A stretch of DNA of 64,000 nucleotides, taken from NCBI GenBank assembly GCA_944386635.1, contig CALXBV010000021.1, forward strand, positions 293-64,292, read 5' to 3'. The translations under genes and the position numbers were made by a program. The notes below the pieces were generated by a model, which saw only the letters and a list, made by a program, of their open reading frames with translations, did no database searches and was not told the DNA's origin. This DNA comes from an uncultured Clostridia bacterium (GTDB lineage Bacteria > Bacillota > Clostridia > TANB77 > CAG-465). Positions within the stretch are counted from its first letter, which is position 1. Every line of letters starts with the position of its first letter. Positions 1,422 to 64,000 of the stretch are shown here, one piece after another.

Positions 1422-1949
1422 TCACAATACTTTATTTATTTGCCTTTTAAGTAAATCTTCAAAAATCTCTTTATGAACTTTCTCATCAATTATTATTCTT
1501 TTTATATTATCAATTATATTAGTATCATAAGTTTTACAAATTAAATTTCTATATTGAGTTATTGCATCCTGTTCTTGAATAATATTATTTTTAAGTACAT
1601 CTCTTATATCATCTATTTGATAATAAACATTACTGGCATCCCAAAAAGTACAATGATTACTAGATATATAACAAGATTTCATACCTAATTGATTTATTAT
1701 TGTTCCCAATATTTCTAAATGATGCATTTCTACAATAGATATTTTACCAATTATTTTTGCTATATCCTTATCTTTTAAATTTATATTTTGATAAACATAC
1801 TTTAAAACAGCAGTAAGTTCACTAACTTTTCCTGAAAAATCGTCTAATATTATATTGGCTAATATAATATTTTTCTTTTCTACATTTATTTTAGGATAAG
1901 AAATTTTGGCAACTTCTTCTAGTTTATTAAGCAAAAAATCATATTCCAT
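1422..1949 (-). CDS. ferritin-like protein of the Mn-catalase/CotJC family
   Basis: 175 aa. Paired E..H helices (IVEMHHLEILG and IDEKVHKEIF) plus SELTAVLKYVYQNI and QEQDAITQYRNLI align by eye with CotJC-type proteins. Confidence 0.55.
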   Translation of the reverse strand: MEYDFLLNKLEEVAKISYPKINVEKKNIILANIILDDFSGKVSELTAVLKYVYQNINLKDKDIAKIIGKISIVEMHHLEILGTIINQLGMKSCYISSNHCTFWDASNVYYQIDDIRDVLKNNIIQEQDAITQYRNLICKTYDTNIIDNIKRIIIDEKVHKEIFEDLLKRQINKVL

Positions 1950-1994
1950 ATTATCTCCCCCCTAACTAATAATATGTTAATATTTTTTATATAT

Positions 1995-2027
1995 GAAAAA
2001 AGCCTGAAAATATTAAATTTTCAAGCT
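1995..2027 (-). terminator. intrinsic terminator after the phosphoesterase pair
   Basis: On the minus strand, AGCTTGAAAA/TTTTCAGGCT form a 10-bp stem with one G-U pair, followed by a T-run. Confidence 0.55.
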
Positions 2028-2034
2028 TTTAATT

Positions 2035-2997
2035 TTACATTATAACATTTTTAGCACTAGTCACATTCTCAGTAACAAATTTAAGAACTTTTCCTTTACA
2101 AATAACAGTCTCAGAAAATTTAGCCGAAGGATAGCTAGTATTTTCATTTAAAAGACCTTTACTATCAAACACCATACCAGATGTAGAAGTTATCATAATA
2201 CCACCAAGTTCTTGTAAACAATTAACATGATAATGACCAAACTGTACGAAACGGATATTATAATTTCTGTTTTTAATAATAACATTATCCGACATATTTT
2301 CAAATTGCTGCCACATTTCTTTTTCTATTTTATAAGATTTAGTGTATGCAAGTTTACCAGTTCCATGTTGTAATCTTTTTACAACTCCTCTTATTACAAG
2401 ATTTGCTACAATTTCATTTATATGATGAAACTCTATTCCCTTTTCATTTAAGCCTCTTTGTACAAGAATAATAGGATTTATTGAATCACTTTTTTCAAAA
2501 GAAATATCCCTTTCTCCATTTATACAATAATATTTAAATTCTGGATATTTTGAAAATAAATCTATAGCAATCTGAGCCTGATCTTGTGCTGTTTTAGCTG
2601 TCAAATATAAATCTTGCTTTTTATAGCTTGGATGTCCCGCACATAAGTCACCAGATATATGAACATTTTGATAGCCACGTTCTTTTGCTAAGTCTAACAT
2701 ATATTTTAATGTACCATAGTCACAAAATGTACTACCAAAATATATATCGCTTAGCTCTAGCCATTTTTCTGTTACTTTCTCTTTACTTGCAAAAGAAATT
2801 ATTTCATAGTTTTTCTCATTAAATTTAGTTATATAATATGTTTTATTATTACTATTATACTTTATATTTCCAGTTGCTCCAATTAATTCTTCAATTTCTT
2901 CTTTTGTTAGCTCTAATTCTTTTAATGTACACTCCTTTAAGCGCATTTTAGAAAGTGCATTAGTTGCTTTTTGTGAGGTTAAAAAATCTTCTTTCAT
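2035..2997 (-). CDS. metallophosphoesterase-fold protein with degenerate catalytic motifs (paralog of the upstream gene)
   Basis: 320 aa. Motif I reads SDIY rather than DxH, and motif III reads GERD rather than GNHD/E. GD (ISGDLCAG) and GHxH (FGHYH) are retained. The N-terminal ~75 aa look HTH-like. Same length and layout as 3002..3961. Confidence 0.7.
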   Translation of the reverse strand: MKEDFLTSQKATNALSKMRLKECTLKELELTKEEIEELIGATGNIKYNSNNKTYYITKFNEKNYEIISFASKEKVTEKWLELSDIYFGSTFCDYGTLKYMLDLAKERGYQNVHISGDLCAGHPSYKKQDLYLTAKTAQDQAQIAIDLFSKYPEFKYYCINGERDISFEKSDSINPIILVQRGLNEKGIEFHHINEIVANLVIRGVVKRLQHGTGKLAYTKSYKIEKEMWQQFENMSDNVIIKNRNYNIRFVQFGHYHVNCLQELGGIMITSTSGMVFDSKGLLNENTSYPSAKFSETVICKGKVLKFVTENVTSAKNVIM

Positions 2998-3001
2998 ATA
3001 A

Positions 3002-3961
3002 CTACACCTCCTTTTGCCATGGACGATAAAATTCTATTTTTTCTCTTACTATTTTGTCGCCAACTATTGTAAGCTCTCTAAATACTCCGCCTGTTTTCCC
3101 AGTAATTCCCATACGCTTTTCTAGATCTCCATCATGTTGAAAGTTACCTGGCATAATAATAGTTACACCACTTATAGATAATGAGTATGTTGTATGAAAA
3201 TGTCCCGCTTGTATACTTCTTAAATTATAACATCTTCCACCAATATACACATCATTTAAATTACTTTCAAACACTCTAGAAAGATAAACTTGTACCTTAT
3301 ATGATGCTGCTCTTGCTGCGCCACCTTGAAGATGAATTAATCTAAAAACTATACCTGCATGTATAATGTTTCCTTCATAAGCATTTAAATAAGTAAACCT
3401 TTTTCCGCTTTTTGCCATTTTCGCCTCTAAGTATTTTATAGGGTCAAGTCCTCCCTTCATGCAAAAAGATTGGTCATGATTTCCAACAGATGTAATATAC
3501 CATAAGTCATACTTTTCAAGAATAGACATAAGTTCAGACACTTGATCAATTGCTCTATTATTCTTTAAATTATTTTCTTGTCCCCTATACACTCCAAAAC
3601 CGTCAAGTAAATCACCTGAGATGTGAACAAACTCAACGCCTCTTTTTTTTGCTTCAAGAAGAGTTTTATCTAATCCTTTTTTATCAAAATTCTTGCATCC
3701 AGCATGTAAATCTGAAATTTCCAAAAGTTTTAATTTTACCTCCTGACCTTTAGCTGGCAAATCAGATATTTTTATATAGGCCATATCACCTCGAGGAACT
3801 ATATAATATACATAGTCTTTAACTCTTGGATCATATTGATCTTTTATATTATATCCTATGTCCTTTAGATAGATAATATCTTCCATTGAAATCCCGAGTT
3901 GCTTTAACGTGAGCTGTTTATTTGTTAAATTTGCAATAAGTTTTTTGTTATATTTCTTCAT
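3002..3961 (-). CDS. metallophosphoesterase with a complete motif set, resembling the PolD small-subunit (DP1) phosphoesterase domain
   Basis: 319 aa with SDLHAG, ISGDLLDG, VGNHD and AGHFH. The strings GDLLDGFGVYRGQENNL and PGNFQ recall the DP1/B-subunit family as I remember it. N-terminal HTH-like region. Confidence 0.7.
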   Translation of the reverse strand: MKKYNKKLIANLTNKQLTLKQLGISMEDIIYLKDIGYNIKDQYDPRVKDYVYYIVPRGDMAYIKISDLPAKGQEVKLKLLEISDLHAGCKNFDKKGLDKTLLEAKKRGVEFVHISGDLLDGFGVYRGQENNLKNNRAIDQVSELMSILEKYDLWYITSVGNHDQSFCMKGGLDPIKYLEAKMAKSGKRFTYLNAYEGNIIHAGIVFRLIHLQGGAARAASYKVQVYLSRVFESNLNDVYIGGRCYNLRSIQAGHFHTTYSLSISGVTIIMPGNFQHDGDLEKRMGITGKTGGVFRELTIVGDKIVREKIEFYRPWQKEV

Positions 3962-4038
3962 AACAATCCCTCCTTAAATTTAAATTTAGGAAACCAAGCA
4001 AATATTTATTTAGCTCATATTCGTTAACAACTGACTTC

Positions 4039-4067
4039 ATTATATAGTATAAAATTTTTAGTGTCAA
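4039..4067 (-). promoter_or_regulatory. consensus sigma-A promoter for the phosphoesterase pair
   Basis: The minus strand reads TTGACA, a 17-nt spacer, then TATAAT. Both hexamers are perfect. It lies about 75 nt upstream of the ATG at 3961. Confidence 0.65.
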
Positions 4068-7726: not shown

Positions 7727-8620
7727 ATGATTTTAAAAGCAGTAAGAGATAACAAAATTGAATCGTATGCCATAATATTAGGTTTCTTGTTTATAGTGAC
7801 TCTAATAATATACTTTGTATGTTATTATATGAATTTAGGACCATACTCTATAATTATAGCTTTAGCTTTTTCATCAGTAAGTTGTTTAATATCATATTAT
7901 AATTGTGATAAAATGGTACTCGCTATGAATGGAGCTAGACCCGCAAATGAAGAGCAAGATAAATTACTTAGTAGTATATTAGATGGATTATGCATTTCTT
8001 CTGGACTACCTAAGCCAAAATTATATATAATAAATGATCCATCTCCTAATGCTTTTGCTACTGGTAGAAATCCACAAAATGCTGTAATTTGTTTTACTAC
8101 TGGTATAATAGAAAAAATGGATAAATATGAATTAGAAGGCGTTATGGCACATGAGTTATCCCATATTAAAAATTATGATATTTTACTGTCAACTGTAATA
8201 TCTGTTTTTGCAGGATTTGTTGTTATGGTTGCTGATTTTGTATTAAGATTTGGATTTTTTAGAAGAAGACATTCTGACGATGATAGAGAAAGTGGACCAC
8301 TAGATGCAATTATAATGATTGTAGGATTAATTTTTCTTTTACTATCCCCATTATTTACTAAACTAATTCAGCTTGCTGTATCTAGAAAAAGAGAATACTT
8401 AGCAGATGCAACAGCAGTTGAATTTACTAGAAATCCCAAAGGGTTGATATCAGCATTAAAAAAATTACAAGCTGATGAATCTAGTATGAAAAATATAAGT
8501 AATGCAACAGCTCATATGTATATAAATGAACCGGATAAAAAGAAAAGAGAAAAAACTGATATTTTTTCTACACATCCCCCATTGTCTGAACGTATTGCAA
8601 GACTTGAAAATATACATTAA
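7727..8620 (+). CDS. htpX: M48 family zinc metalloprotease HtpX
   Basis: 297 aa. HELSHIKN (HExxH), four TM segments, and NAFATG upstream of the zinc site. Confidence 0.85.
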   Translation: MILKAVRDNKIESYAIILGFLFIVTLIIYFVCYYMNLGPYSIIIALAFSSVSCLISYYNCDKMVLAMNGARPANEEQDKLLSSILDGLCISSGLPKPKLYIINDPSPNAFATGRNPQNAVICFTTGIIEKMDKYELEGVMAHELSHIKNYDILLSTVISVFAGFVVMVADFVLRFGFFRRRHSDDDRESGPLDAIIMIVGLIFLLLSPLFTKLIQLAVSRKREYLADATAVEFTRNPKGLISALKKLQADESSMKNISNATAHMYINEPDKKKREKTDIFSTHPPLSERIARLENIH

Positions 8621-8626
8621 TATAAA

Positions 8627-8668
8627 AAAACACTTTAAAAAATTTTATATTTTTAAAGTGTTTTTTAT
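8627..8668 (+). terminator. intrinsic terminator after htpX
   Basis: AACACTTTAAAA / TTTTAAAGTGTT stem followed by a T-run. Confidence 0.75.
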
Positions 8669-8732
8669 TAGTTTACTATTTAAAAACGTACTTGTATATG
8701 ATATACTTAAACTTGTAATTAAGGAGGGCAAA

Positions 8733-9191
8733 ATGAAATTAAGAGGATTTGAAGTTGCAAAAGGATTTGAAGATAAACAAATTAATCTTCCTGAAAGAAA
8801 AACTAAATACTCTGCAGGATACGATATAGAAGCTGCAGAAGATACAATTGTTACTAGTATAAAAAAACAAAGTACACCTACATTAATAAAAACAGGGCTA
8901 AAAGCATATATGCAAGATGATGAAGTGCTTCTTTTATATAATAGAAGTTCTAATCCTAAGAAAAAAGGTCTTATTATGGCAAATAGTGTTGGTGTAATAG
9001 ATAAAGATTATTATGGAAATCCAGATAATGATGGACACTTTATGTTTTCTTTCTATAATATAAAAGATGAAGATATATTAATAAAAAAAGGTGAATGCAT
9101 AGGACAAGCCATTTTTCAAAAATATCTAATAGCTGATAATGATAATGCTGAAGGTATTCGCATTGGTGGATTTGGAAGCACAACAAAATAA
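8733..9191 (+). CDS. dut: dUTP diphosphatase (trimeric dUTPase, YncF-like)
   Basis: Start moved to the ATG at 8733, behind AAGGAGGG. Motifs: SAGYDI, NSVGVIDKDYYG, C-terminal GGFGSTTK. The upstream 69 codons of the track ORF run through the htpX terminator. Confidence 0.85.
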   Translation: MKLRGFEVAKGFEDKQINLPERKTKYSAGYDIEAAEDTIVTSIKKQSTPTLIKTGLKAYMQDDEVLLLYNRSSNPKKKGLIMANSVGVIDKDYYGNPDNDGHFMFSFYNIKDEDILIKKGECIGQAIFQKYLIADNDNAEGIRIGGFGSTTK

Positions 9192-63338: not shown

Positions 63339-64000
63339 TTATTTATTATACAAAGTAGTAATACTTATCTCTGGTGGATCAAAGATTCTAATAGGTCTAG
63401 TCGAATTTCCAACTCCTCTACTTACTATCATTTTACTATTATATCTTAAATGAATACCTGCAGAAAGTCGGGTAAAAAACCAATGTTTCCTTGCAGTTGC
63501 AACTCCAATCCCAAAAATTCTTATTCCACCACCATGTAAATGTCCTGAGAAAATAAGATCAAAGCCCATTCTTGCATACACTTCAAAATCCATAGGATCA
63601 TGAGATAATAATATGTTGTAAAAACTAGTATCAATTTTACCTATAGAATCTTCATAATCTTTTTTATATGACTGTATAACTTGTTCTGTTAATTCCTTCT
63701 TAGAAGCTATATGTCTAAATCTATATGAAAGTCCATATAAATTTATTTTACTATTATCTCTTATTAGTTCTATCTTTTTATTATCTAATACTACTACACC
63801 TATATCTTGTAATTTTTCTTTAAAATCTAATAACTCTTTATTACTTAAAGCTCTTTCATGATTACCATATGTAAAATATATTTTATCTAATTGTATCTTA
63901 CTAATAAATTCTATAGCTGGTTTATAATCTCTTTTTTGCCTAATAATAAAGTCTCCTGTAATTACTATTATATCTATTTTTTCTTTACTAATTTTTTTAT
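63339..64000 (-). CDS. metallophosphoesterase (YkuE/YaeI-like), C-terminal part; gene runs off the right edge
   Basis: The frame is open from 64000 with no stop. Own translation gives …ITGDFII…YFTYGNHE…LLSHDPMDFEV…SGHLHGGG. The track shows only the last 84 aa. Confidence 0.75.
   Translation of the reverse strand, partial: KKISKEKIDIIVITGDFIIRQKRDYKPAIEFISKIQLDKIYFTYGNHERALSNKELLDFKEKLQDIGVVVLDNKKIELIRDNSKINLYGLSYRFRHIASKKELTEQVIQSYKKDYEDSIGKIDTSFYNILLSHDPMDFEVYARMGFDLIFSGHLHGGGIRIFGIGVATARKHWFFTRLSAGIHLRYNSKMIVSRGVGNSTRPIRIFDPPEISITTLYNK

What the first reader, a model, noticed from the sequence alone, without database searches (positions are those of the whole stretch)
2035..4067. Tandem DP1-like phosphoesterase paralogs: one catalytically complete, one with degenerate metal-binding motifs
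Two adjacent genes of 319 and 320 aa are 4 nt apart and sit behind a perfect TTGACA-17-TATAAT promoter. They share an N-terminal HTH-like region and a calcineurin-type phosphoesterase domain. The upstream copy has every motif (DLH, GD, GNHD, GHFH). In the downstream copy motif I reads DIY and motif III reads GERD. The strings GDLLDGFGVYRGQENNL and PGNFQ resemble, from memory, the phosphoesterase domain of the archaeal PolD small subunit and eukaryotic B-subunit family rather than SbcD/Mre11. Pairing an active enzyme with an inactivated paralog echoes the inactivated eukaryotic B subunits. No large polymerase subunit or SbcC-like partner is nearby.
Basis: partly seen in the sequence, partly recalled or inferred. 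Interest (0 to 1): 0.6.

Follow-up and report, generated by a model that had tools for sequence, protein, structure and literature searches.

The report
DP1-like nuclease with dead paralog partner
Two adjacent genes in an uncultured gut Clostridia bacterium encode a probable nuclease, whose closest characterised relative is the proofreading subunit of archaeal DNA polymerase D, and a catalytically dead copy that almost certainly partners it; the pair belongs to an undescribed bacterial branch of a known enzyme family and no polymerase partner is evident.

Summary
Genes A (3002-3961, minus, 319 aa) and B (2035-2997, minus, 320 aa) lie 4 nt apart. They form a self-contained operon between a perfect TTGACA-17-TATAAT promoter and a hairpin terminator.

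A keeps all eight metallophosphoesterase catalytic and ligand residues. B keeps five (DxH is DIY, GNHD is GERD). More distant B orthologs keep almost none.

The DP1 hunch holds on three independent tests: NCBIfam (2e-17), a family profile against PDB sequences (DP1 4e-12, Mre11 4e-4), and Foldseek (top 10 hits are all DP1, for both proteins).

It is not a DP1 ortholog:
- Scores are far below the family cut-offs.
- A winged helix replaces the OB fold.
- The genome has no DP2.
- DnaE and PolC are present whether or not the pair is.

The pair is conserved in 22 species loci with differing neighbours and is fused into one protein in several lineages. Dead and active domains form mirrored clades. 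Both genes are under strong purifying selection (dN/dS about 0.07).

Most likely this is an obligate active/dead heterodimeric nuclease. Its substrate and cellular role are inferred, not shown. I class it as a new variant of a known kind, of moderate interest.

The parts
4039..4067 (-). Sigma-A type promoter: TTGACA (4067-4062), 17-nt spacer, TATAAT (4044-4039)
   Evidence: It scores 12/12 in the consensus scan. Both hexamers and the spacer length are invariant in 13 species.
3962..4031 (-). Conserved 5' leader. It holds an anti-SD TTTCCT (3993-3988) that can pair with the SD AGGAGG (3974-3969).
   Evidence: The alignment of 13 species has 74% mean identity although synonymous sites are saturated. 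RNAalifold pairs the anti-SD with the SD, with a both-sides change in L009, but the energy is weak at -3.65 kcal/mol. There is no Rfam match.
3002..3961 (-). Gene A, 319 aa: N-terminal winged helix plus a catalytically complete DP1-like metallophosphoesterase
   Evidence: ORF. All eight catalytic residues are invariant in 15 homologs. NCBIfam DP1 2e-17. AF2 pLDDT 85, pTM 0.88. Foldseek top 10 are DP1.
3764..3961 (-). A residues 1-66: winged-helix domain, basic (pI about 9)
   Evidence: AF2 topology is H6-14, H19-22, H26-34, E39-44, E49-54, E60-64. N-termini of relatives match HTH_11, TrmB and MarR models. Charge analysis.
3023..3742 (-). A residues 74-313: phosphoesterase domain (D84, H86, D117, N161, H162, H210, H254, H256)
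2035..2997 (-). Gene B, 320 aa: winged helix plus a degenerate (pseudoenzyme) phosphoesterase domain. Its RBS lies inside the 3' end of A.
   Evidence: ORF. 32% identity to A, E = 2e-32. Motif I is DIY and motif III is GERD, and distant orthologs lose motifs IV and V too. AF2 pLDDT 84.6. Foldseek top 10 are DP1. dN/dS is 0.07.
2794..2997 (-). B residues 1-68: winged-helix domain. It is acidic (pI 4.4-5.3) in 11 of 13 family members and near neutral (pI 6.3) in the window's own B.
1992..2030 (-). Intrinsic terminator: 14-bp AT-rich hairpin followed by a U run, directly after the stop codon of B
   Evidence: RNA fold gives -15.6 kcal/mol, z = -4.7, and 0 of 200 shuffles fold as well. The pattern scan missed it because the stem has fewer than 3 G-C pairs.

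Best explanation
A and B are the two subunits of one enzyme, an obligate heterodimer (a pseudo-dimer where the genes are fused).

A is a two-metal phosphodiesterase of the DP1/Mre11 nuclease branch of the calcineurin-like superfamily. It most likely acts as a 3'-5' exonuclease or endonuclease on DNA ends or single-stranded DNA. Its mostly basic winged helix probably helps hold the nucleic acid.

B has the same fold but lacks the motif I histidine, the motif III asparagine and the catalytic histidine. It cannot hydrolyse and probably serves as a structural or regulatory partner. Its winged helix is acidic in most orthologs, which suggests a protein-binding or autoinhibitory role and not DNA binding.

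The operon has a strong constitutive-type promoter, an RBS that may be sequestered, translational coupling between the genes, and its own terminator. It works without a dedicated polymerase or ATPase partner.

Shown here: gene structure, motif states, fold, DP1 affinity, co-inheritance, fusions and purifying selection. Inferred: heterodimer formation, nucleic-acid substrate, and the roles of the winged helices.
For: - Catalytic state: A has all 8 catalytic residues, invariant across 15 homologs down to 42% identity. B has 5 of 8, and its distant orthologs have 0-3.
- Nuclease affinity: the best NCBIfam hits are five DP1 models, up to 2e-17. The PDB profile search gives DP1 4e-12 and Mre11 4e-4. 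Foldseek against PDB returns DP1 as the top 10 for both A (1e-11, TM 0.55) and B (3e-10), followed by Rv0805 and Mre11 at about 1e-8. PHROG 7339 'DNA repair exonuclease' matches A at 1e-11 and B at 3e-7. Foldseek against viral models returns phage proteins annotated 'DNA polymerase II small subunit' or metallophosphatase.
- Partnership: the tandem A-B order is kept in 22 of 23 species loci, including distant ones with unrelated neighbours. Single-protein fusions exist in both A-B and B-A order, and each has exactly one intact and one degenerate domain.
- Co-evolution: dead domains form one clade (100/99) and their active partners another (100/99), with mirrored topology.
- B is functional: dN/dS is 0.07 for both genes against 0.19 for the neighbouring GDPD gene. 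Mean amino-acid identity is 85% and 83% against 68%.
- Operon boundaries.
- Winged-helix charge asymmetry.
- Inteins with LAGLIDADG endonucleases are inserted after GNHD in some relatives. From general knowledge, inteins typically target DNA-metabolism enzymes.
Against:
- No heterodimer model could be run.
- The Foldseek margin between DP1 (1e-11) and the cyclic-nucleotide or glycerophosphodiesterases Rv0805 and GpdQ (1e-8 to 1e-7) is modest, and TM scores are only about 0.55.
- No conserved neighbour points to DNA metabolism.
- Some relatives appear to lack a dead partner, namely the Saccharibacteria locus L023 and halovirus ORF43.
- In two genomes, G439 and G444, A carries an in-frame TAA while B is intact. 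This is odd if B is useless without A, unless these are assembly errors.
Confidence: 0.6

Rival explanations
1. Bacterial analogue of the DP1 / B-subunit system. The A/B pair docks onto a host DNA polymerase (DnaE, PolC or a repair polymerase), with A as a trans-acting proofreading exonuclease and B as a scaffold.
For: DP1 is the closest characterised relative by sequence and fold. Phage metallophosphoesterases with the same fold have been linked to replication: the Bxb1 RDF is needed for phage DNA replication and has weak 3'-5' exonuclease activity (PMC11795197). An active-plus-inactive phosphoesterase theme also exists in archaeal and eukaryotic polymerases (PMC7544198).
Against: The genome has no DP2 (77% complete). 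The OB fold is absent, and DP2-CTD docking could not be tested. DnaE and PolC are present in all 50 genomes of the genus whether or not they carry A-B, so no polymerase co-varies with the pair. No polymerase gene neighbours the pair at any locus. PolC already has its own exonuclease (general knowledge).
Confidence: 0.1
2. A small-molecule or nucleotide phosphodiesterase (cyclic nucleotides, 2',3'-cNMP, dinucleoside polyphosphates) whose winged helices couple the enzyme to transcription control. In this reading it is a regulator-enzyme and not a nuclease.
For: Second-tier fold hits include Rv0805 (a cNMP phosphodiesterase) and GpdQ. The N-terminal domain is a winged helix of the type used by transcription factors, and JGI names one relative 'biotin operon repressor/predicted phosphodiesterase'. 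There is no DNA-metabolism neighbourhood.
Against: Sequence profiles place A with DP1, then Mre11. YfcE, CpdA and LpxH models score E >= 0.09 or do not appear. The motif II extension GDxxDGxGxYxGQ is shared with DP1. Intein insertions occur in relatives. The winged helix of B is acidic.
Confidence: 0.15
3. An anti-phage defence or abortive-infection nuclease cassette.
For: It is a self-contained two-gene module with its own strong promoter. It is present in only 21 of 79 genomes of the GTDB family and 2 of 400 sampled from the class. A fused version occurs at other loci, one of them about 3 kb from an integrase gene. There are faint NCBIfam hits to DS9 and DS8 antiphage phosphoesterases, E = 0.055 and 0.0065.
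Against: There is no PADLOC match. The pair sits in a fixed syntenic position among housekeeping genes (rsmA, GDPD, thymidine kinase). It is kept in all 17 members of one subclade. It is more conserved than its neighbours, with dN/dS 0.07, whereas defence genes usually turn over quickly (general knowledge). The faint antiphage hits are 12-14 bits against cut-offs of 420-790.
Confidence: 0.1

Closest known systems
Archaeal family-D DNA polymerase small subunit DP1 (3'-5' proofreading exonuclease; PDB 5IHE, 6KNB, 8PPT; NCBIfam NF003116-NF003120)
   Same: Both are calcineurin-type two-metal phosphodiesterase domains with identical ligand and catalytic motifs. They share the motif II extension GD(L/V)xDGxGxYxGQ, and homology runs through the GHxH region to the C-terminal end of the domain. 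DP1 is the best sequence and fold match for both A and B.
   Different: Scores are 63 bits or less against family cut-offs of 425-993. There is no OB-fold insertion; a roughly 65-aa winged helix sits at the N-terminus instead. The genome has no DP2 partner. The proteins are about 320 aa against 450-700 aa. The host is bacterial and has normal PolC and DnaE.
Eukaryotic DNA polymerase B-subunits (Pol alpha, delta, epsilon; Pfam PF04042), the inactivated DP1 homologs
   Same: The concept is shared: a phosphoesterase fold that has lost its catalytic residues and is retained as a structural partner, as B is here (PMC7544198).
   Different: No sequence or fold hit to any B-subunit was obtained. B is paired with an active paralog and not with a polymerase catalytic subunit. 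Its inactivation is an independent event within a bacterial clade.
Mre11 / SbcD nucleases
   Same: They have the same fold and catalytic mechanism, and the enzyme works as a dimer of phosphoesterase domains. They are the second-best relatives.
   Different: The match is much weaker: 4e-4 against 4e-12, covering motifs I-II only. No hit exceeds the SbcD model cut-off in any of 50 genomes of the genus. There is no adjacent SbcC/Rad50-type ATPase. The dimer here would be an active/dead heterodimer and not a homodimer.
Phage DP1/Mre11-like metallophosphoesterases (for example the mycobacteriophage Bxb1 gp47 RDF; PHROG 7339; phage proteins auto-annotated 'DNA polymerase II small subunit')
   Same: They are stand-alone phosphoesterases of similar size with a DP1-like fold.
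   Different: They are mostly single genes without a dead paralog. Sequence similarity is too low for tblastn, apart from one haloarchaeal virus protein at 27% identity. No relative was found in IMG/VR.

Membership tests
Calcineurin-like metallophosphoesterase superfamily (Pfam PF00149 / PF12850) | Conserved motifs DxH, GD, GNH(D/E), H and GHxH that supply seven metal ligands and a catalytic His | tested here: met
   A has all eight residues present and invariant in 15 homologs, and its PF00149 score of 23.1 bits exceeds the 21.5 cut-off. B does not meet this feature: it keeps 5 of 8 (DIY, GERD) and has no Pfam hit, but it keeps the fold.
PolD small subunit DP1 / polymerase B-subunit family | Phosphoesterase domain specifically closest to DP1 | tested here: met
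   NCBIfam DP1 models are the top hits at 2e-17. The PDB profile gives DP1 4e-12 against Mre11 4e-4. The Foldseek top 10 are DP1 for both A and B.
PolD small subunit DP1 / polymerase B-subunit family | Score above the curated family thresholds (NF003116-20; Pfam PF04042) | tested here: not met
   The best score is 63.2 bits against a cut-off of 445. There is no PF04042 hit for A or B. None of the 10 wider relatives sampled from the top 150 reaches a DP1 cut-off.
PolD small subunit DP1 / polymerase B-subunit family | OB-fold domain inserted in the N-terminal part of the phosphoesterase domain | tested here: not met
   AF2 models show a three-helix plus beta-wing domain (winged helix) at residues 1-66 and no five-stranded barrel. 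The DP1 architecture is taken from PMC4996933.
PolD small subunit DP1 / polymerase B-subunit family | Partner catalytic subunit (DP2, or a PolB with a zinc-finger CTD) | tested here: not met
   PF03833 was not found in the window's genome, while the archaeal controls were positive. The genome is only 77% complete. No polymerase gene is adjacent at any locus.
PolD small subunit DP1 / polymerase B-subunit family | 3'-5' proofreading exonuclease activity | not testable with these tools
   This needs purified protein.
Mre11 / SbcD | Match to the SbcD/Mre11 family model above its cut-off | tested here: not met
   For TIGR00619, 0 of 50 genomes of the genus exceed the cut-off, and A and B are not among even the weak hits. 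PDB Mre11 matches at 4e-4 over motifs I-II only.
Mre11 / SbcD | Operonic SbcC/Rad50 coiled-coil ATPase partner | tested here: not met
   The ORF lists and Pfam scans of neighbours in the window, L019, L022, L062 and L063 show no such gene. A genome-wide SbcC search was not run.
Known anti-phage defence systems (PADLOC-DB v2) | Match to any defence protein model | tested here: not met
   There are no hits at E <= 1 for A or B.

The most novel reading that the evidence does not exclude
The A/B pair is a bacterial counterpart of the archaeal and eukaryotic DP1 / B-subunit module. In this reading, an active DP1-like exonuclease and its dead paralog dock onto a bacterial replicative or repair polymerase, or onto the clamp or SSB, as a trans-acting proofreader plus scaffold. 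This would show that the polymerase-accessory phosphoesterase is not confined to Archaea and Eukarya, and it would bear on scenarios in which a PolD-like replicase predates the bacterial one.
Probability: 0.07. Interest if true: 0.85.

Novelty: new variant of a known kind. Interest (0 to 1): 0.55.

Why it matters
DP1-type phosphoesterases are described in the papers read here as found exclusively in Archaea, where they proofread for PolD, with inactive descendants serving as eukaryotic polymerase B-subunits.

This finding shows a sizeable uncharacterised bacterial branch. A profile search found about 1,900 clusters (50% identity) at E <= 1e-3, in Clostridia, Patescibacteria and Omnitrophota MAGs and in one haloarchaeal virus. 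This branch fuses the DP1-like domain to a winged helix.

In one lineage the gene duplicated into a co-evolving active/dead pair that is sometimes fused into a single protein. That is a clean natural example of a pseudoenzyme partner, and an independent parallel to the inactivation of DP1 into B-subunits.

If the pair is a nuclease, it adds a DNA-end-processing activity to small-genome gut Clostridia that have no SbcD. If it touches a polymerase, it would matter for how replication machinery evolved.

Public records name these proteins only 'hypothetical' or 'metallophosphoesterase'. I found no paper describing them, though only two literature searches ran.

Tried and rejected
- DP2 (PF03833) in the window's genome: none, with archaeal controls positive.
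- SbcD (TIGR00619) across the genus: none over the cut-off in 50 genomes. The idea that A/B replaces SbcD only in carriers is therefore not supported, because carriers and non-carriers both lack it.
- DnaE and PolC (TIGR00594) across the genus: both are present in essentially all 50 genomes and show no correlation with A-B.
- PADLOC: no hits.
- IMG/VR scan with the A profile: no relatives.
- Phage GenBank tblastn: a single hit, Halorubrum tailed virus BLv36 ORF43. It sits between portal and capsid genes and not in a replication module, so it says nothing about function.
- Conserved-neighbour analysis: the neighbours differ in distant loci (truA, 3D-domain protein, YibE/F, CtpB, Hsp33; glycosyltransferases, CotF, DeoC, LexA; ABC transporter, SpoIID; LytR, SDR). 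No functional partner emerged. Spore-related neighbours (a Mn-catalase/CotJC-like gene in the window, CotF in L022, SpoIID in L062) recur loosely, and I judged this a coincidence in spore-formers.
- LexA box upstream: read by eye; there is only a poor half-match.
- Rfam on the leader: nothing.
- A small ORF in the leader: rejected because its ATG overlaps the -10 box and the frame is not conserved.
- Profile of B against PDB sequences: no hits, so the relationship of B to DP1 rests on fold and on its homology to A.
- Aravind and Koonin 1998 (PMC147763) is not held in the library. Literature searches for bacterial DP1-like proteins found nothing relevant, and one query was malformed.
- DP1 sequences could not be fetched for a joint tree, so no phylogeny of this family together with DP1 and Mre11 was built.
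Full report
**1. What is in the sequence**

Both genes lie on the minus strand.
- A runs 3002-3961 (319 aa) and B runs 2035-2997 (320 aa), 4 nt apart. The Shine-Dalgarno sequence of B sits inside the end of A.
- Upstream is the only perfect promoter match in the region: TTGACA, 17 nt, TATAAT at 4067-4039.
- Directly after the stop codon of B is a 14-bp AT-rich hairpin with a U run at 2030-1992. It folds at -15.6 kcal/mol with z = -4.7.
- The unit is therefore a self-contained two-gene operon.

A and B are paralogs, 32% identical over 295 residues with E = 2e-32.

**2. Active versus dead**

In an alignment of 15 A homologs down to 42% identity, D84, H86, D117, N161, H162, H210, H254 and H256 are all invariant. 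These columns align with the DP1 motifs that carry its published metal ligands and the proton-donor His451 (PMC4996933).

B reads D-Y-D-E-R-H-H-H at the same eight positions, so 5 of 8 are kept. Across 13 B orthologs the decay goes further:
- Motif I becomes GALY or GSLL.
- Motif III becomes GDAD, GVNE or GSRD.
- Motif IV loses its His.
- Motif V becomes GGAM or GNVL.

B is thus a pseudoenzyme throughout its family. It is not a decaying gene:
- dN/dS is about 0.07 for both A and B, against 0.19 for the neighbouring GDPD gene. dS is saturated, so these ratios are approximate.
- Mean amino-acid identity is 85% (A) and 83% (B), against 68% for GDPD.

**3. Fold and nearest relatives**

AlphaFold2 models are confident: A has pLDDT 85 and pTM 0.88, and B has 84.6 and 0.85. 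Each protein has an N-terminal three-helix plus beta-wing domain, about residues 1-66, which is a winged helix. A two-sheet phosphoesterase domain follows. N-termini of relatives match HTH_11, TrmB and MarR models, which supports the winged-helix reading.

Pfam sees only a marginal Metallophos match in A and nothing in B. Three independent tests place the pair with DP1:
- NCBIfam's best hits for A are five archaeal 'DNA polymerase II small subunit' (DP1) models, up to 2e-17. B hits one at 0.008. YfcE, CpdA, LpxH and SbcD models are absent or at E >= 0.09.
- Against PDB sequences, the A-family profile gives DP1 4e-12 and Mre11 4e-4. The single A sequence already ranks six DP1 entries first.
- Foldseek against the PDB ranks ten DP1 chains first for both A (1e-11, TM 0.55) and B (3e-10). 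Rv0805, Mre11, SbcD and GpdQ follow at about 1e-8 to 1e-6.

No eukaryotic B-subunit appears in any list. Foldseek against viral models finds phage proteins of 350-440 aa. Several are auto-annotated 'DNA polymerase II small subunit' or metallophosphatase, at similar scores. PHROG 7339 'DNA repair exonuclease' matches both A and B.

The B-subunit parallel remains an analogy.

**4. Why it is not DP1**

- Bit scores are 63 or less against cut-offs of 425-993.
- The OB fold that defines DP1 and the B-subunits is replaced by a winged helix.
- DP2 is absent from the genome, which is 1.46 Mb and 77% complete.
- All 50 genomes of the genus have both DnaE and PolC whether or not they carry the pair.
- No polymerase, helicase or SbcC-like ATPase is adjacent at any locus.
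- No genome of the genus has a true SbcD.

**5. Distribution and evolution**

Close homologs come only from uncultured gut Clostridia MAGs from rabbit, sheep, deer and human samples.

The tandem A-then-B order is kept in 22 of 23 species loci. This includes distant ones (A at 45-57% identity, B at 36-42%) whose neighbours are entirely different.

Presence by taxon:
- In the GTDB family, 21 of 79 genomes carry the pair.
- In a sample of the class, 2 of 400 do.

Within the genus, presence tracks one subclade exactly. All 17 genomes whose GDPD protein is at least 62% identical to the window's carry the pair, at the same syntenic position (G5/SLT transglycosylase, rsmA, GDPD, usually thymidine kinase, A, B). 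All genomes with GDPD identity of 49% or less lack the pair at that site. In one non-carrier, G433, about 0.6 kb separates the thymidine kinase gene from the peptidase gene that flank A-B in carriers. The pattern is a single gain, or an old loss, followed by stable vertical inheritance.

An exhaustive profile search finds 1,925 clusters (50% identity) at E <= 1e-3 and 592 at E <= 1e-10.
- Most are single proteins of 290-450 aa with intact motifs.
- Of ten sampled from the top 150, all have DP1 as their best NCBIfam hit and none reaches a DP1 cut-off.
- Named members come from Omnitrophota and Patescibacteria MAGs and are annotated only as metallophosphoesterases.

Several proteins are fusions.
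- A-B order: P0091, P0092, P0094 and P0095, plus the G405 and G469 genomes.
- B-A order: P0141, P0160, P0168, P0175 and P0233.
- Every fusion has exactly one intact and one degenerate domain.

In a maximum-likelihood tree, the 17 dead domains form one clade (100/99). Their active partners form another (100/99). The internal topology is mirrored between the two clades. This indicates one duplication and inactivation followed by co-diversification. Fusion in both orders plus co-evolution is strong comparative evidence that A and B act as one physical unit.

**6. Further details**

- The winged helix of A is basic (pI about 9 in 11 of 15 homologs). That of B is acidic (pI 4.4-5.3 in 11 of 13), although the window's own B is near neutral at pI 6.3. 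This suggests only A's winged helix binds nucleic acid.
- The leader from the -35 box to the RBS is conserved across 13 species even though synonymous sites are saturated. A TTTCCT element can pair with the Shine-Dalgarno sequence, with one both-sides change in L009. The predicted energy is weak and there is no Rfam match.
- Some relatives carry an intein with a LAGLIDADG endonuclease inserted right after GNHD.

**7. Mechanism and rivals**

The best-supported model is an obligate active/dead heterodimer in which A is a DP1/Mre11-type two-metal nuclease and B is a non-catalytic partner. Confidence in the whole statement is 0.6. I put the active-plus-dead partnership alone at about 0.85 and a nucleic-acid substrate at about 0.6.

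Rivals:
- A polymerase-associated proofreader (0.1). There is no co-varying or adjacent polymerase.
- A small-molecule phosphodiesterase or regulator (0.15). This is second-tier by fold and disfavoured by the sequence profiles.
- An anti-phage cassette (0.1). There is no PADLOC hit, the position is fixed and syntenic, and the genes are unusually conserved.

**8. Novelty**

I found no description of this family in the literature that could be searched. Public names are generic. Earlier notes of this scan on other genomes reached the same reading. I treated them as leads and re-derived each point here.

I class it as a new variant of a known kind: a bacterial, winged-helix-fused, DP1-like phosphoesterase with a co-evolving dead paralog.

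Noticed in passing
window 3962-4031 (minus strand); anti-SD 3993-3988, SD 3974-3969: The 5' leader of the operon is conserved in 13 species. It contains TTTCCT, which can pair with the Shine-Dalgarno AGGAGG. L009 has TTTTTT/AAAAAA at the same columns, so both sides changed. This may be RBS sequestration. The predicted energy is weak (-3.65 kcal/mol) and there is no Rfam match.
   Followed up: partly
relatives P0098, P0126, P0127, P0144, P0153, P0164 (not in the window): Single-domain relatives carry an insertion of about 300-400 aa. In most it lies right after the GNHD motif; in P0127 and P0153 it lies further downstream (A-profile position about 220-235). The three scanned against Pfam or NCBIfam (P0098, P0126, P0153) match LAGLIDADG, and P0153 also matches intein splicing models. 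It is an intein in the catalytic core.
   Followed up: partly
relatives P0141, P0160, P0168, P0175, P0233 (Omnitrophota and Patescibacteria MAGs): These are fusions in the reverse order, with the dead domain first and the active domain second. In four of the five, the active half has Ser in place of the motif III Asn. Their active halves fall in a different clade from the Clostridial pair, next to the halovirus protein, so this may be an independent active/dead arrangement.
   Followed up: partly
L003 5224-5805 (and L005, L012; non-carriers L058-L060): A thymidine kinase gene lies divergently just upstream of A in most carrier genomes, and next to GDPD in non-carriers. It is missing in the window and in L001 and L002, where GDPD abuts the A promoter.
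   Followed up: partly
G439:C38:1290-2223 and G444:C3:146365-147298 (same genus): In two genomes gene A is interrupted by a single in-frame TAA while B is intact. This is either early pseudogenisation of the active partner or an assembly error.
   Followed up: no
L024 (Halorubrum tailed virus BLv36, OQ850970.1) 7740-8900: The only relative in the phage GenBank collection is ORF43 (386 aa, 27% identity, all catalytic residues intact). It sits between portal and capsid genes and not in a replication module.
   Followed up: partly
G000:C69:12213-13259 (own genome, outside the window): The PolC-like reading frame (about 1485 aa) of the window's own genome contains one in-frame TAA according to the six-frame search. 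This is probably a sequencing or assembly error in the MAG.
   Followed up: no
window about 63762-64000 (minus strand, runs off the window end): Another metallophosphoesterase-like ORF (276 aa frame) gives a weak hit (2.7e-4, below cut-off) to the SbcD model. It is unrelated to the A/B pair.
   Followed up: no
window 1422-1949 (minus); L022 5405-5650; L062 8111-9538: Spore-associated genes recur loosely near the pair: a Mn-catalase/rubrerythrin-like (CotJC-type) protein in the window, a CotF-domain protein in L022 and SpoIID in L062. I judged this coincidental.
   Followed up: partly
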